A DNA stretch of 64,000 nt from Haliotis rufescens (lineage: Eukaryota). The position numbers were made by a program. Position 1 is the first letter of the stretch; each line of letters begins with the position of its first letter. Shown one piece after another: positions 15,201-33,200 of the stretch. The stretch spans positions 12,710,001-12,774,000 of the forward strand of contig NW_025964001.1 of NCBI RefSeq assembly GCF_023055435.1, in the 5' to 3' direction.

Positions 15201-18200
15201 CTTCTACACAATCCCTAGTTCAACCCCAGTAAATGGAACAGTGTGGACTATGTTTGCAATCTCAGGGCCTGATGAAATATACGCATTCGTGGTGTGTAAA
15301 CAGAAAACTATATTCATTATTCTTCACTGGTCTTCATGTCATGCGCATCTTGATTTAAATTGATTTCGAGGAAAATATATAGTCGCCAAGCTCTAAATTA
15401 ACAATATTTCGTTCCTAATGTGACTACGATGGACGTGATGTTATCAATATTCAGGCGCAACAACCACCTAAATCCGTCGAGGTGTGTATATATATATATA
15501 TCACACAAGCACGTGAACACCCTATATCATAATATTGTTATCCGAAGCACGTGTAAACCTGAATAACTCAAAGTAGTTCATCATGTGACCATTTTATTTG
15601 CATTTTCATCATCTGGAAACCAATGAAACCTCAGTGACTATTAAAAGGGATAGCTGAGTCGGATTTAGAATTATTCCCCAGAAAGCATCCGAGATGACAC
15701 ACGCAGGTTGTTGTGGTACGACTTCGGTCTTCGTCAAGGTGTCAGCATTCTTGTTTCTCTTTGCATTTGGCCTTCTTCTTCTGGGGTTCGGGACGCCACT
15801 ATGGAGTTCAAGAGGAGGTCAGAACGAAGGACTCTGGGAGAGGTGCACCGGGAGCGTATGTGTCTCAACTCCATCTGATCCACTAGGAGGTATGTCTAAA
15901 ATGTGGAGTGTTCTAAATGTACGATTTAGATAACCCAAAAGATTAAGTGAAACGAAATATATCTGTCTTCACGTGGACGGATTCTGTTAAATAAACAGCT
16001 CCTCAACACAATAAAAAAAGTAATTAACGTCTTATTATAACCCTTAAAAAACCATCGGGATGCATATTCCAGTCTTATGTGAACAACAAGCAAATGACCC
16101 TTTTTTACAGTATGCTCTATATCAGTGCAGATAGGGAGCATCGATGTTAAATTCTTATTAAGTGAAACGGGGCACGGTTGGCCCAGTCGTCTTAGACGCC
16201 GTGATTCGCTGTGCAGAGTTGCGTCCCTTGGGCACGCCAGAAACCCATGATTGTGGGTTCGAATCCCAGTTCTCCCCGATTATGTTTCTAGGTTTGTCAG
16301 CACCATACCCGTGCTCGTTGGTTTCACCAAAGTGATAAACGTCTCAGATCTGCATCACTTCGGGCTTTCCTTCCACATAAAGCTGACACGCCGTGATGTA
16401 CTTGGAATACTGTTAAAGGCGGCGTTAAATCCAACTCACTCACTATACAGTGAAATGGCGGTTGCTTGAACTTCATGTATGTTTGATACATATAAGGTAC
16501 ACGCCATGTTACAGTACACTATACACTTATCATGCAGATCAACAGCTGTTTTATATATTAGAGAAGGTACGCGCCATGTTAACTAATGTATCACTATGCA
16601 CTGTATCTTACAGGACAAATCTTGCAGATCAAGACTGGTTTACATAGGTCTATTGGGGAAGGGACACACCATGTTACTGTACTTTATTCACTGCTTCTTG
16701 CAGATGAAGACTCGTTTACATAGGTCTATTGGGGAAGGAACACACCATGTTACAGTACTTTATTCACTGCATCTTGCAGATTAAGACTGGTTTACCTATG
16801 TCTATTTGGGGAAGGTCCACACCATATTATTGGATCATTGTTCCCTCTATCTTGCAGATGAAGACTGGTTTATTACCGTGCAAGTGGTTGTGACGATTGG
16901 CTTGATCCTTGGTTTTGTCGGCGTCATACTTTCTTTCATCATCCTGTGTGATGTCGCATGTGTAAACAAAATGGCAATCCGGATTGCAGCGATCATACAC
17001 GCCTTTATACCAGGTAGGAGTAGTTACAGTTCCTGTTTCCAAATGTAAGAATTCAACTGGACCATTCACATCTTTGTACCGGTTTAAAGAGGTTATTGTT
17101 TCCAAATGTAAGAATTCTACTCGGCCATTCACAACTTATTGTCTGGATTCCGGGTAAGCAAAGCTATGCTTGTCGTAAGAGGCGACGACATAGATGCATA
17201 TGTTGTCAATCACTGGATTGTCTGACCAGACTCGATGATTTACAGACAACCGTCATATAGCTGGGATATTGCTGAGTGTCGTTGAACAAAAAACAGTCGA
17301 TCAATAATACCAATCTCTAAATAAGGATATTCAAAACAGAAATAAGTAGAAAGTGTCCGCCCTCGATCAATGGGTACCCTTATGATTACAAACTCAAACA
17401 AATACAAATATAAATATGACAAAGGCCTTCTAAACATAGCATGTGCTGATTCATATATAAATATTTTTAAAGCTGGCTTGCTCTTGTGCGGTTTGTTTGT
17501 CTACTGGAGCAGAGGCGAGATATATTTCGCCGTCTTCTATCTGGGGTTTTCCTGGGGGATCACTCTTATTGCCGCCATCGTCTTCATCGTCGCTGGCATA
17601 CTCCTCTCCATCGACATTGACCGCTTCCCCAACAAGCCTGTAGAATGTGATGAAGCTACAGCAACATGCTGCACATGCCTCGACTAAATAGTGTCAAGGT
17701 CGCGATGTGTTTCAATATGTCAAAGGAATGAAGGCATGTCATAATGTATCATGCATAATGTATACTATCCGTCAATAAAGCAAATTTTGTATATACCTTG
17801 GTTTTTTTATCATTACGATATACGAAATTAGTTAGGTTGAGATCCAACCATAGTGAACATCATTCAAACAGTCAGTCACAGATAGCCGTTTTTCTTTACG
17901 CTTCAAGCAACTTGTAGCCATTGAAAGACGTAAACCCTTGCGGGAATAATATACTGAACACCAAAAGTTCCTGTGACATTGAATAAGATGTAATGCAAAG
18001 TTATGTTTTTTACCAAATCTGAAACAATTTCGGTTTGCAACAGATAAAAGACTCCTGTAAGTGTTCAAATTGTTTAATTTGCCATACTGACTTCAGAAAA
18101 TGCGTGATTTCATCAAAAAGATGAACATGCCAAAATGTCAATTTACAAATCAATAGCTATGTAACTATGGACCAGGCGTCGCACAAAGTCCAGTGGGATA

Positions 18201-30200: not shown

Positions 30201-33200
30201 TGGTCTGTGGGGGTTGAGTAACACGCTTGGCTGGAGCTGAGGCCTGGATCAGGGGACACTGGCTTTGGGCTGGTGCGTGGGGTGATGGAGACAGGCGCTC
30301 AGCTGGGGCGTGGATGTCAACAGTTATCTCCCTTTCATGGCGGGATATTCGAGCTTCTGGTGGACTCTTGACTGTTTCTGAGTAGAGTAGTTTATCCCTC
30401 GTATTCATGCATTCTATTTTACCATCGATTGCGCTTGGTCGCTTGTTGATTGATGACATTGTCTCGCACAGTTTGTCTTTCAATAAGATATTTTTACGAT
30501 ATACGAATGGCCATGAGATTAGGTAGGTTGAGATCAAACCATAGTGAACATAATTCAAACAGTCAGTCACAGATAGCCGTTTTTCTTTACGCCTCAAGCA
30601 ACTTATAGCCATTGAAAGACGTAACACCTTGCGGAAATAATATACTGGACAACAAAGGTTCCTTTGACATTGAATAAGATTTAATGCAAAGTTATGTTTT
30701 TTACCAAATCTGAAACAATTTCGGTTTGCAACAAATAAAAGACTCCTGTAAGTGTTCAAATGGTTTAATTTGCCATACTGACTTCAGAAAATGCGTGATT
30801 TCATAAAATAAACCCATGAACATGCCAAAATGTCAATTTACAAATCAATAGCGTGTGTGTCCACCTCTGGTTGCGATGCAAGCAACACATCTACGTCTCA
30901 TGGAATGGACCAGGCGTCGCACAAAGTCCTGTGGGATATCTGTCCATATCTGCTGGAGCATGTTTCGAAGTTCCTGGAGTGTCTGTAGAACACGTTGTTG
31001 ACGTCGAAGGCGCCGATCCATCTCCACCCACATGTGCTCGATTGGTGAGAGATCGGGGAGCGAGCCGGCCAGGGGATGACATTCACGTTGTTTTGTTGAA
31101 GAGAATCCTGAACAAGTCGAGCAATATGAGGCCGGGCGTTGTCATGTTGAAAGATAATGCCTGGGCCATGACGAAGCAAAAAGGGTAGAACAACAGGGCC
31201 GATGATCTCGTCGCGGTAGCGCTGTCCATTGAGATTTCCCTCTACCACTATCAAACGGGTCCTCTGTCTTGCTGTAATCCCACCCCATACCATAACGCTG
31301 CCGCCCCCGAACCGATTTTCTTCCTTGACACAATGATTGACGTAACGTTCACCTCGACGTCGGTACACTCGAATCCGTCCATTGCTGTGTCTGAGGTGAA
31401 ATCGAGACTCGTCAGTGAATAGAACTTGTCCACACTGCATGGCCGTCCAGCGTAGAAGCTGTCTGCACCACTGTAGACGTGCTTGACGGTGGTTCCTGTC
31501 AAAATGGGACGTCTGGCGGGTCTTCTGGCGACAATCCCTGCACATCTGAGGCGATGACGTACGGTTTGTGAAGATATTCGTCGAAGGCCAGGGATGCTTC
31601 TTGCAGTCACTGTTGCTAGCTAGAATCGATTTCGTAGGTGTGTTGTTCGAATCCAGTTGTCTTGTCGATTATTGGTTACGCGTGGCCTGCCACTCCGAGG
31701 ATGGTCTCTGACTGCATTCGTCTGTTGCCAATGTTGCCATAAACACCAATCGTCTACAAAGCAAAGAGAAAATAATTCAGGGTTTGCCATATCAGATGAT
31801 TTATTACATTGCCTACTTGAGCGTAAATATTGATGTACATGACAGTTAATTTTTATTATTTTTCATTGCAATATCCATATACATATACACAGTCACATTA
31901 TTCAGACGTGTTCCTTTAGACATTAAGATTTTAAGCAGGTAGGAAGCTGGTAGCCAGGAAACCACGAAGCCAGGAATTTGTCTCAAAGGAATGTGTCAAT
32001 ACAGTACAACATAGAAAAAATTTCTAGATCTCAGGATTGGCACTAGAAGAACGGGAGTCAGCACATTTGCGTTCTACTCCATACACACTGGGTGAAATGG
32101 CAGAAACAACCTTTCTAATCGGCATATCTAGTCCCCGCAATCGCCCAAACTGTTTTGGTAAGACACTTCTAGATCGTCAATTCTGCTTGTTTCAACAATT
32201 GAACTTCGTGTTCAACACCTTCTGACAGTAGGAATATAATGTGAAAGTGAAAGTACATGTAGAACTACACCAATCTGAACTCCATTCACCAATGAATCTG
32301 TTCGTGTTTTCGGATCCGGACGAAGAAAGGTATATTGCTGGTCCCAGCAAATGTACCACCAAATGGTATCTAAAAACTTAAGCATAATCCTTCATGCAAT
32401 CAAGGAAGGACTTTCTTTACATTCACAGAAAGTGTTTGAGACAAGGATTCTAAAGAACTCAGAGGATTTGTTTGATCTCAGAAACCTACCAAGTTCTATT
32501 ATGTCAAAACACGTGACTTTTCAACTGTATTCACCACTCGACAAACACTTCATAAGGGAGAACTTCATTCCTTGATTCGCAGGGCAGTTGTCCCTGAACG
32601 AAGTGATCACAGACATAGTTAATTACTATCTTCAAAGGTTCGTGAAAATTTGTCAAAATTGAAAGCCAGTGTCGTCTAAAGTATATGAGAAAACAATACG
32701 TGAAATGCTGGTATCTATCCACAAAATCTATCTACGAAGACTTCAATGAGCGTCATACTACACTTGCTCAAAGGTTGTTGTGTGATCAGGGGTACAACCT
32801 TCAAAAGCTAAGTAACGCTTTCAAGATGTTTTATCAGACCAAAAAACGATGGCTGATGCTATGTCCTATTTTGATTCGTACCATACCATATGGTCACTTG
32901 TTTCTTCAGGTGAATGAGGGGGCACGGGTGGCCCAGTCGTCTAAGGCGCCGCGATTCGCTGTGCAGAGTTGTGTCCCTTGGGCACGCCAGAGACCTATGA
33001 TTGTTGGTTCGAATCCCGGTTCGCCCCAATTATGTTTCTAGGTTTGTCAGCACCATACCCGTGCTCGTGGGTTTCACCGAATTTGTAAACGTCTGAGACC
33101 TGCATCACTTCGGGCTTTCCTCTCACATTAAGCTGACACGCCGCGATATAACTGTAATACTGTTAAAAGCGGCGTTAAACCCAACTCACTCACTCACTCA

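What the first reader, a model, noticed from the sequence alone, without database searches (positions are those of the whole stretch)
17813..32698. LINE flanked by an apparent kilobase-scale target-site duplication (2.66 kb / 2.2 kb)
Seen: 17813-20468 and 30494-32698 are direct repeats. The left copy ends exactly where the LINE (TCTA)n tail begins (...GAGAAAACAATA|GATAGATAG). The right copy begins exactly at the truncated 5' end of the same LINE, and the interrupted Penelope-like sequence continues only after the right copy. This is TSD geometry, roughly 100-fold longer than typical TSDs. Established: some RTE-clade elements make TSDs of up to a few hundred bp. Inference: insertion of this LINE family can itself duplicate kilobases of host DNA, here a Tc1 and a gene 3' flank, which would be a route to tandem duplication.
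Basis: partly seen in the sequence, partly recalled or inferred. Interest (0 to 1): 0.75.

Follow-up and report, generated by a model that had tools for sequence, protein, structure and literature searches.

The report
LINE flanked by kilobase direct repeats
An old, broken LINE retrotransposon in a bivalve-like genome sits exactly between two copies of a 2.2-2.7 kb host segment, which may be a giant target-site duplication made at insertion, but a deletion within a tandem gene array could give the same picture.

Summary
17813-20468 (D1) and 30494-32698 (D2) are direct repeats: 2084 aligned columns, 7.0% mismatches, 21 indels. A minus-strand LINE fills the whole interval between them. Its AATAAA plus (ATCT)n tail abuts D1, and its 5'-truncated ORF1 abuts D2. 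The left flank runs uninterrupted into D1, because two paralogous gene-3' units read straight through that point.

A kilobase-scale, LINE-coupled duplication is my best reading (about 0.45). Support comes from a related LINE elsewhere in the window (about 52354-53775). It has the same 3'-terminal motif and is flanked by 105-bp direct repeats in the same geometry.

The reading is not proven. The locus is a tandem array of gene units. A LINE insertion plus a deletion reaching from one unit into a lost sister unit would leave the same geometry (about 0.3). The empty site and other genomic copies could not be examined here.

The "Penelope-like" label found no support in any search. Divergence between the repeats is uneven: 5.1% in the Tc1 part against 9.5% in the right part.

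Kilobase LINE target-site duplications are already documented for human L1 in repair-deficient cells and for Chlamydomonas Dualen, and an L1-bridged tandem duplication is documented in a tumour. This would be a new natural example of a known kind.

The parts
17813..20468 (.). D1, left copy of the direct repeat. It holds about 140 bp of 3' flank of gene unit A1, a Tc1-like transposon, and a 1.2-kb unidentified stretch.
   Evidence: end junction; start junction
30494..32698 (.). D2, right copy of the direct repeat. It is shorter because stretches of 409 and 123 bp present in D1 are absent here.
   Evidence: junctions
20469..30493 (-). LINE-A, whole element including two younger nested elements. 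It is 5'-truncated. Its 3' end is AATAAA + GAC + (ATCT)n at 20469-20496.
29818..30492 (-). LINE-A ORF1 remnant: 225 open codons, with the N-terminal part (about 107 aa) missing relative to P0014.
20605..29704 (-). LINE-A ORF2 remnant (EN + RT), given as one broken gene by the outer bounds of homology to P0001. Breaks: 2 nested insertions, at least 4 frame changes, at least 1 in-frame stop, and at least 1 internal deletion (about 290 codons missing).
22553..23611 (.). Satellite array (202/415-bp period) inside the nested TIR element.
24305..26040 (.). Satellite array (214-bp period), inverted relative to the first array, inside the same nested TIR element. The element has terminal inverted repeats and a 9-bp duplication at its ends.
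27840..28277 (+). RT domain of a second nested element, a plus-strand LINE-like element lying between the two endonuclease halves of LINE-A. It has no flanking direct repeat longer than 9 bp.
17950..19274 (-). Tc1-like transposon in D1 (HTH + DDE_3); bounds approximate.
30640..31749 (-). The same Tc1-like insertion in D2, with one end lost in the 409-bp gap.
11042..12437 (+). Third, independent Tc1-like copy, used as the outgroup for dating.
15013..17930 (+). Unit A1: 3' part of a gene, with a conserved terminal open segment at 17346-17684 and AATAAA at about 17776. Its last 118 bp lie inside D1.
35615..38770 (+). Unit A2, paralogue of A1. It reads through the point equivalent to 17813.
44860..47968 (+). 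Unit A3, paralogue of A1 and A2. It reads through the point equivalent to 17813.
32699..32917 (.). Y, the sequence that follows D2. It is the presumed ancestral right flank, up to a SINE at 32918-33194.
52354..53775 (+). LINE-B, a related 5'-truncated LINE. RT is 48% identical to LINE-A. It has the same 3'-terminal GGAAATAAAGAC and a 4-nt-unit tail. It is broken: all three frames are used and there are 1-4 in-frame stops depending on the reference.
52249..52353 (.). Left copy of the 105-bp direct repeat flanking LINE-B.
53781..53884 (.). Right copy of the 105-bp direct repeat flanking LINE-B (84.8% identity, pairwise E=1e-30).

Best explanation
A LINE insertion duplicated about 2.7 kb of target DNA.

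Shown:
- The ancestral order was P (3' end of gene unit A1), then D (3' flank + Tc1 + 1.2 kb), then Y.
- The LINE's reverse transcription was primed on the plus strand at the D|Y joint. There the target ends in ATA, which overlaps the tail repeat.
- The element is 5'-truncated inside ORF1, and its 5' end is joined to the start of a second copy of D.

Inferred: the second-strand break, or the point where the finished cDNA re-engaged the chromosome or a sister chromatid, lay about 2.7 kb upstream at P|D instead of about 10-20 bp away. Fill-in therefore left D on both sides.

Later events: two other elements nested into the LINE; D2 lost 409 and 123 bp; and part of D was probably homogenised by gene conversion.
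For: - Both repeat ends coincide to the base with the LINE ends.
- There is no short duplication at the LINE ends that would mark an ordinary insertion.
- The tail and AATAAA at the D1 side mark a genuine retrotransposition junction.
- ORF1 homology runs to the D2 junction, so the 5' end is a truncation point as in target-primed insertions.
- P|D1 is ancestral.
- The Tc1 is shared by D1 and D2 and absent from A2 and A3, so D2 derives from the A1 lineage.
- LINE decay is of the same order as that of the Tc1 copies inside D: 7 minimal disruptions in 3.24 kb (2.2/kb) against 3.0-3.6/kb.
- A related LINE with the same 3' motif has about 105-bp flanking repeats, outside any detected longer duplicated block.
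- The priming-side target ends of both LINEs contain AAAAC within 0-4 nt of the nick.
- Precedents exist. L1 target-site duplications over 1 kb occurred in 18 recovered inserts in NER-deficient cells (PMC5223499). Dualen duplications have a median of 900 bp. An L1-bridged tandem duplication is described in a tumour (PMC7058536).
Against: - This is a single case, and 2.7 kb is about 25 times the only other value seen for this LINE group here.
- A nested LINE-like element of another family has no long duplication.
- The locus is a tandem array with signs of sequence exchange, which makes a non-TSD origin cheap.
- D1/D2 divergence is uneven: 52 of 1028 in the Tc1 part against 89 of 938 in the right part (Fisher p=1.6e-4).
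- The three Tc1 copies form a star: 5.5, 4.5 and 6.1% over 1039 columns. The right part therefore looks older than the Tc1 burst, unless conversion or rate differences intervened.
- By raw indel and substitution rates of D, the LINE looks somewhat less decayed than expected. This is my estimate, and its power is low.
- Continuity of D2 into Y could not be confirmed by any homologue.
- LINE-B's left repeat is preceded by 14 nt that resemble a LINE 3' end, so its history may have two steps.
Confidence: 0.45

Rival explanations
1. A pre-existing tandem duplication, then an ordinary LINE insertion, then a deletion. Unit A1, with its downstream D and Y, had a full sister unit, as A2 and A3 are to each other. 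The LINE inserted at the end of D in unit 1. A multi-kilobase deletion, either coupled to the insertion or later, then ran from the LINE's 5' part, or its 5' end, to a point just after the polyadenylation site of the sister unit. What remains is unit 1 up to point x, the LINE, and the sister unit from point y onwards. Because y lies before x in unit coordinates, the stretch y..x stands on both sides of the LINE with exact-looking boundaries.
For: - The window holds three paralogous gene-3' units, with weak colinear homology further upstream (63-69%).
- Identity near the gene end is 94-98%, so duplication and exchange are active at this locus.
- The tree of the shared flank is (D1,D2),(A2,A3). 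Within-pair differences are similar: 5 of 118 for D1/D2, and 93-95% identity for A2/A3 over their longer shared tract. D2 against A2 or A3 is about 90% identical.
- The LINE is 5'-truncated, as a deletion entering it would leave it.
- LINE-associated deletions of 0.5 kb and more are documented (PMC7058536).
- Uneven divergence and the mildly low decay of the LINE fit a LINE younger than the duplication.
Against: - It needs two or three events, and no trace of the lost sister gene remains.
- LINE-B shows that this LINE group can carry long flanking repeats where no longer duplicated block was detected.
- The D2 start lies about 35 bp after AATAAA, with no feature that calls for a deletion end there.
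Confidence: 0.3
2. Unequal crossing-over between two polymorphic insertions of the same LINE family. One lay at P|D on one haplotype and one at D|Y on the other, in the same orientation. Recombination within the LINE gives P-D-LINE-D-Y.
For: The product is indistinguishable from the observed structure, and the LINE retains enough length to recombine. Recombination between flanking repeats is a standard route to tandem duplication (established knowledge).
Against: It needs two independent same-family, same-orientation insertions 2.7 kb apart, both segregating at once and in trans. No other close copy of LINE-A is in the 64-kb window.
Confidence: 0.07
3. The LINE landed by chance exactly on the joint of an older D-D tandem duplication.
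For: It would explain a LINE younger than the repeats.
Against: - It needs a hit within a base or two of one point in about 5 kb.
- There is no short duplication at the LINE ends.
- The D|Y joint, not a D|D joint, carries the ATA overlap with the tail in both copies.
Confidence: 0.05
4. Assembly artefact: two haplotypes of D stitched in series around a heterozygous LINE.
For: The nearest named relatives of the LINE are from Mytilus. From recall, bivalve genomes are highly heterozygous and prone to false duplications.
Against: - There is no gap at any of the three junctions; the only N run is at 55735-55866.
- 7% mismatch plus 21 indels, including 409 and 123 bp, is high for alleles.
- A stitch would not place the start of D2 exactly on the LINE's 5' end.
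Confidence: 0.05

Closest known systems
Kilobase target-site duplications of engineered human L1 in nucleotide-excision-repair-deficient cells (PMC5223499; passages read)
   Same: A LINE is flanked on both sides by the same host segment. Lengths over 100 bp were common and over 1 kb occurred in 18 recovered inserts. The authors propose a distant second nick and note that such events duplicate functional DNA and resemble copy-number variants.
   Different: Those are cultured human cells with a repair defect and a poly(A) L1. Here it is an old, fixed, natural insertion of a microsatellite-tailed LINE in a bivalve-like genome, and causation was not observed.
Dualen-4b LINE insertions in Chlamydomonas mutation-accumulation lines (bioRxiv 10.1101/2022.05.23.493040; passages read)
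   Same: These are natural, de novo LINE insertions flanked by duplications with a median of 900 bp, read by the authors as very long target-site duplications.
   Different: Dualen carries two endonucleases, and the authors invoke that fact. LINE-A shows only the apurinic-type endonuclease. The kingdom differs, and those events were seen as they arose.
L1-bridged tandem duplication and L1-mediated deletions in human tumours (PMC7058536; passages read)
   Same: A single L1 lies at the joint of a direct tandem duplication. The proposed model is cDNA engaging a second break on a sister chromatid. The same paper documents L1-associated deletions from 0.5 kb upwards, which is the mechanism needed by the main rival.
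   Different: Those events are somatic and the duplication is megabase-scale (22.6 Mb). They were detected from read clusters, not from an evolved locus.
R9 LINEs of rotifers with a 126-bp target-site duplication (seen only as cited in the Chlamydomonas preprint; paper not read)
   Same: A LINE family whose regular duplication is about 100 bp, like LINE-B's 105 bp here.
   Different: R9 is specific to rDNA sites. LINE-B and LINE-A lie in ordinary intergenic DNA.

Membership tests
Non-LTR retrotransposon (LINE) with apurinic-type endonuclease | Reverse transcriptase domain | tested here: met
   RVT_1, E=8.5e-11, 42.4 bits against a cut-off of 29.6. 53% identity to EN+RT proteins P0001 and P0002. 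P0001 matches L1 ORF2p and R2 structures.
Non-LTR retrotransposon (LINE) with apurinic-type endonuclease | Endonuclease domain N-terminal to the RT, colinear in one ORF | tested here: met
   Pfam hits are weak and below cut-off (E about 3e-4). However, three pieces are colinear with residues 20-97, 107-364 and 363-1155 of P0001, which carries PF03372, PF14529 and PF00078.
Non-LTR retrotransposon (LINE) with apurinic-type endonuclease | 3' end with a tail, and no LTRs | tested here: met
   AATAAA + GAC + (ATCT)n at 20469-20496. The same terminal 12-mer occurs in LINE-B: 5 matches in the window against 0.37 expected. No terminal repeats of the element itself appeared in the repeat lists.
Target-site duplication of a LINE | Direct repeats abut both element ends | tested here: met
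Target-site duplication of a LINE | Outer flanks are continuous with the repeats in the ancestral sequence | tested here: inconclusive
   The left side is met: A2 and A3 read through the point. The right side (D2 into Y) has no paralogue and no homologue.
Target-site duplication of a LINE | The empty site carries one copy of the repeat | not testable with these tools
Target-site duplication of a LINE | Repeats and element have the same age | tested here: inconclusive
   Minimal disruptions are 2.2/kb in the LINE against 3.0-3.6/kb in the Tc1 copies. The repeats themselves give two ages, 5.1% and 9.5%.
Penelope-like element (for 19389-20468 / 31750-32698 and the following Y) | Penelope-type RT and/or GIY-YIG endonuclease recognisable in translation | tested here: not met
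   - No relevant Pfam hit at E up to 10 for 9 open segments, or for the 10.
- 0 homologues in the word search.
- 0 homologues in phmmer against 1.84 billion representatives.
- Atlas scores of 0.82 and 0.78 are at noise level.
Tc1/mariner (element inside D) | DDE transposase with N-terminal HTH | tested here: met
   DDE_3 at E=4e-8 and 7e-8, HTH_23 at E=1e-5. A third copy lies in the window.
   No clade-labelled reference set was available. A relative has a 335-aa ORF1. From recall, that is not typical of RTE.

The most novel reading that the evidence does not exclude
This bivalve LINE group, recognisable by the shared 3'-terminal motif and 4-nt-unit tails, habitually makes its second-strand break, or re-engages the chromosome, far from the first nick. 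Its insertions would then carry duplications of 10^2 to 10^3 bp. It would be a natural germline generator of tandem segmental duplications, here copying a transposon and a gene's 3' flank, in repair-proficient animals.
Probability: 0.2. Interest if true: 0.6.

Novelty: new member of a known kind. Interest (0 to 1): 0.4.

Why it matters
If LINE-A really duplicated 2.7 kb on insertion, it would be a fixed, natural animal example of a process so far seen mainly in repair-deficient cultured cells, in tumours and in an alga. It would link retrotransposition directly to the birth of tandem duplicates next to genes.

The 105-bp case in the same window hints that the property may belong to a LINE family rather than being a one-off accident. 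That can be tested by a simple genome-wide survey of flanks.

The case also carries a caution. Inside tandem arrays, a transposon flanked exactly by long direct repeats is not by itself proof of a long target-site duplication.

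Tried and rejected
- Penelope identity and D2|Y continuity. I searched the open segment that spans 32698|32699 (90 aa) by word search among longer proteins (52 candidates, none scored). I also ran phmmer against 1.84 billion representatives (0 hits), Pfam up to E=10 and the Atlas (best 0.82, noise level). The 98-aa segment upstream gave only a sub-threshold potyvirus P3 hit, which I regard as chance, and noise in the Atlas. I rejected the label as unsupported, and continuity stays unproven.
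- Homology of the right part of D and of Y to the sequence downstream of A2 and A3. A sensitive blastn found only SINE pieces and two weak colinear blocks near the next unit, and nothing across the D|Y joint.
- Other copies of LINE-A in the window. There are none at DNA level. At protein level there are only LINE-B, a distant LINE at 4200-5897 and the nested element.
- SINE copies as a proxy for the LINE's integration habit. Their tail is (CACT)n, not (ATCT)n, so they are not shown to be partners. Their duplications are 7-11 bp.
- The 12-mer match at 57334 and its twin at 1572 have no tail and no RT nearby. I dropped them.
- Transduction models (5' or 3') were rejected, because P|D1 is ancestral.
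- DNA-templated insertion at a replication-based duplication joint was rejected as the sole cause, because the inserted piece ends in the element's own tail.
- The genome-contig scan was not used, because it holds prokaryotes only.
- Literature. Searches listed no report of a kilobase LINE duplication in a mollusc. This covers only the held open-access library, and supplements were closed and not seen. I read passages only, through 'find', of PMC7058536, PMC12350158, PMC3439969, PMC5223499, bioRxiv 10.1101/2022.05.23.493040 and PMC13295347. For PMC8934628 I saw a reference-list passage only. All other papers appeared only in search listings.

The window is not human: the nearest named relatives are Mytilus proteins. 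The terminal open segment of gene A was searched on its own.

Full report
WHAT IS THERE

The window has 39% G+C and one N run, at 55735-55866. The nearest named protein relatives of its LINEs come from Mytilus. I therefore take it for a bivalve-like genome, not human.

The two stretches named in the finding are real direct repeats. The repeat finder and self-blastn pair 17813-18979 with 30494-31749, 19389-19770 with 31750-32125, and 19893-20468 with 32125-32698. A global alignment gives 2084 aligned columns, 146 mismatches (7.0%, K2P 0.074) and 21 indels. Two of these, 409 and 123 bp, are present only in the left copy. The duplicated segment was therefore about 2.7 kb when it formed.

THE JUNCTIONS

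- D1 ends ...GAGAAAACAATA and is followed by GATAGATAGATAGAT.
- D2 ends with the same twelve bases and is followed by unrelated sequence.
- Homology begins at TTACGATATACG in both copies.
- In a four-way alignment the paralogous units A2 and A3 read straight through the point equivalent to 17813, whereas D2 is preceded by LINE sequence.

The joint between the left flank and D1 is thus ancestral, and the left end of D2 is a novel joint.

WHAT D CONTAINS

D holds three things:
- about 140 bp of 3' flank of a plus-strand gene, whose conserved terminal open segment (17346-17684) and AATAAA lie just upstream;
- a Tc1-like transposon on the minus strand, with HTH and DDE_3;
- about 1.2 kb that no tool could identify.

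The Tc1 sits at the same site in D1 and D2 and is absent from A2 and A3. D2 therefore descends from the A1 lineage after the Tc1 inserted.

THE ELEMENT BETWEEN THE REPEATS

It is a minus-strand non-LTR retrotransposon, called LINE-A here.
- Pfam finds RVT_1 (E=8.5e-11) and two weak endonuclease halves.
- Three pieces are colinear with residues 20-97, 107-364 and 363-1155 of a 1163-aa EN+RT relative, P0001. P0001 itself matches solved L1 ORF2p and R2 structures.
- Read on the minus strand, the 3' end is AATAAA, GAC, then (ATCT)n.
- Upstream of ORF2 lie 225 open codons that match residues 110-322 of a 335-aa relative, P0014, right up to the junction with D2.

Counted breaks in LINE-A:
- ORF2 has 2 nested insertions, at least 4 frame changes and at least 1 in-frame stop.
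- About 290 codons are missing from its 3' piece.
- A parsimony count gives 7 disruptions in 3.24 kb.
- The ORF1 remnant has none in its 225 codons.

Only about 4.4 kb of the 10-kb interval is LINE. The rest is two younger nested elements:
- a TIR element with two mutually inverted satellite arrays and a 9-bp duplication at its ends;
- a plus-strand LINE-like element with no flanking repeat over 9 bp.

I described them only and made nothing mended or joined.

IS THE GEOMETRY A TARGET-SITE DUPLICATION?

Points in favour:
- Both ends are exact.
- The 3' junction has a retrotransposition signature, with a 3-nt overlap (ATA) between target and tail repeat.
- There is no short duplication of the ordinary kind.
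- The left flank is ancestral.

Transduction models fail because P|D1 is ancestral. A purely DNA-templated filler fails because the insert ends in its own tail.

An unexpected piece of support came from elsewhere in the window. A related LINE (LINE-B, plus strand, about 52354-53775) has these features:
- Its RT is 48% identical to LINE-A's.
- It carries the same terminal 12-mer, GGAAATAAAGAC.
- That 12-mer has 5 matches in the window with up to 1 mismatch, against 0.37 expected; none of 100 shuffles reached 5.
- It is flanked by 105-bp direct repeats, 52249-52353 and 53781-53884 (84.8% identity, pairwise E=1e-30).
- The right copy starts after the tail, and the left copy ends where LINE protein homology begins.
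- The self-comparison found no longer duplicated block around that site.
- The priming-side target ends of both LINEs contain AAAAC within 0-4 nt of the nick. With n=2 this is weak.

One caveat applies to LINE-B. The 14 nt before its left repeat resemble a LINE 3' end with one tail unit (12 of 14), so that site may have been hit twice.

WHY THE CASE IS NOT CLOSED

The locus is a tandem array.
- A1 (15013-17930), A2 (35615-38770) and A3 (44860-47968) are paralogous gene-3' units.
- Weak colinear homology (63-69%) lies further upstream.
- Identity near the gene end is 94-98%.
- These figures together show old duplication plus ongoing exchange.

If A1 once had a full sister unit, the observed structure arises without any long duplication. 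The LINE would insert at the end of D in unit 1, and a deletion would then run from the LINE's 5' side into the sister unit. Both boundaries of the repeats would be set automatically.

The shared 118-bp flank groups as (D1,D2),(A2,A3):
- D1 against D2 differ at 5 of 118 positions.
- A2 and A3 are 93-95% identical over their longer shared tract.
- D2 against A2 or A3 is about 90% identical.

LINE-linked deletions of 0.5 kb and more are documented (PMC7058536).

Two further observations fit a less simple history:
- Divergence between D1 and D2 is 52 of 1028 (5.1%) in the Tc1 part but 89 of 938 (9.5%) in the right part (Fisher p=1.6e-4).
- The three Tc1 copies form a star: 5.5, 4.5 and 6.1% over 1039 shared columns.

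Gene conversion of the left half would reconcile this with either hypothesis.

LINE-A shows 2.2 minimal disruptions per kb against 3.0-3.6 per kb for the Tc1 copies. That is compatible with equal age or with a somewhat younger LINE, and its power is low.

WHAT COULD NOT BE DONE

No eukaryote genome collection was on hand. Other copies, empty alleles and LINE-to-copy divergence therefore stay unchecked. The 'Penelope-like' label and the continuity of D2 into Y found no support in five different searches.

COMPARISON WITH WHAT IS KNOWN

- Kilobase target-site duplications of L1 were recovered in NER-deficient human cells. Most inserts had duplications over 100 bp and 18 had over 1 kb. In HeLa cells fewer than 10% exceed 100 bp (PMC5223499).
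- Dualen-4b insertions in Chlamydomonas lines carry duplications with a median of 900 bp (bioRxiv 10.1101/2022.05.23.493040).
- A single L1 bridges a 22.6-Mb tandem duplication in a tumour, explained by cDNA engaging a break on a sister chromatid (PMC7058536).

What would be new is a fixed germline example in an animal with, presumably, intact repair, and perhaps a family-level habit.

VERDICT

- Best explanation: LINE-coupled duplication of about 2.7 kb, 0.45.
- Main rival: LINE plus deletion across pre-existing tandem units, 0.3.
- Unequal crossing-over between two polymorphic insertions: 0.07.
- Chance hit on an older D-D joint: 0.05.
- Misassembly: 0.05.
- Novelty: new member of a known kind.
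- Interest: 0.4.

Noticed in passing
window 52249-53884: A second, related LINE (LINE-B, plus strand, about 52354-53775) has the same 3'-terminal 12-mer as LINE-A and a 4-nt-unit tail. It is flanked by 105-bp direct repeats (84.8% identity) in target-site-duplication geometry.
   Followed up: yes
window 52234-52247: The 14 nt just upstream of LINE-B's left repeat resemble a LINE 3' end plus one tail unit (12 of 14 match LINE-B's own end). The site may have been hit twice, or the history has two steps.
   Followed up: partly
window 29-10298 versus 58845-53406: A large inverted segmental duplication occurs in several blocks (75-97% identity). It includes 66-72-bp-type satellite arrays (8316-9012 and 54710-55326) and the 3' part of LINE-B with its right repeat, so it postdates LINE-B. 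An N run (55735-55866) lies inside the right arm and was left alone.
   Followed up: partly
window about 22.1-26.5 kb (arrays 22553-23611 and 24305-26040): A non-autonomous TIR element is nested in LINE-A. It has G+C-rich terminal inverted repeats, a 9-bp duplication at its ends and two mutually inverted arrays of a 202-214-bp satellite. No coding capacity was found.
   Followed up: partly
window 15013-17930, 35390-40164, 44649-48914: A tandem array of gene-3' units carries a conserved terminal open segment (96-99% identical over its last 220 nt) and an internal 76-bp tandem repeat (16620-16872). High-identity tracts (93-95%) lie next to 63-69% upstream homology, which points to gene conversion. 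The gene was not identified; Pfam gave only noise.
   Followed up: partly
window 17930-17955 and 19275 onwards, versus 38771 onwards: Homology between A1 and A2/A3 stops at the Tc1 insertion site. The sequence right of the Tc1 is unrelated to what follows in A2 and A3, so a rearrangement or deletion is associated with the Tc1 or with the A2/A3 lineage.
   Followed up: no
window 16169-16444, 32918-33194, 36838-37114, 46144-46403, 51929-52203: A 277-bp SINE-like repeat has a (CACT)n tail and 7-11-bp target-site duplications. Two copies are solo, and one insertion is shared by A1-A3.
   Followed up: partly
window 17813-20468 versus 30494-32698: Divergence between the two repeat copies is uneven: 5.1% in the Tc1 part against 9.5% in the right part (p=1.6e-4). 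The three Tc1 copies in the window are equidistant (4.5-6.1%).
   Followed up: partly
window 4200-5897 (minus strand): Another, distant LINE remnant (22-27% identity to the relatives of LINE-A). Its flanks were not examined.
   Followed up: no
window 32712-32736: Two short (ATCT)-like runs lie on the plus strand 14-37 nt to the right of the D2|Y joint, in the opposite orientation to LINE-A's tail. They may be chance or a trace of target preference.
   Followed up: no
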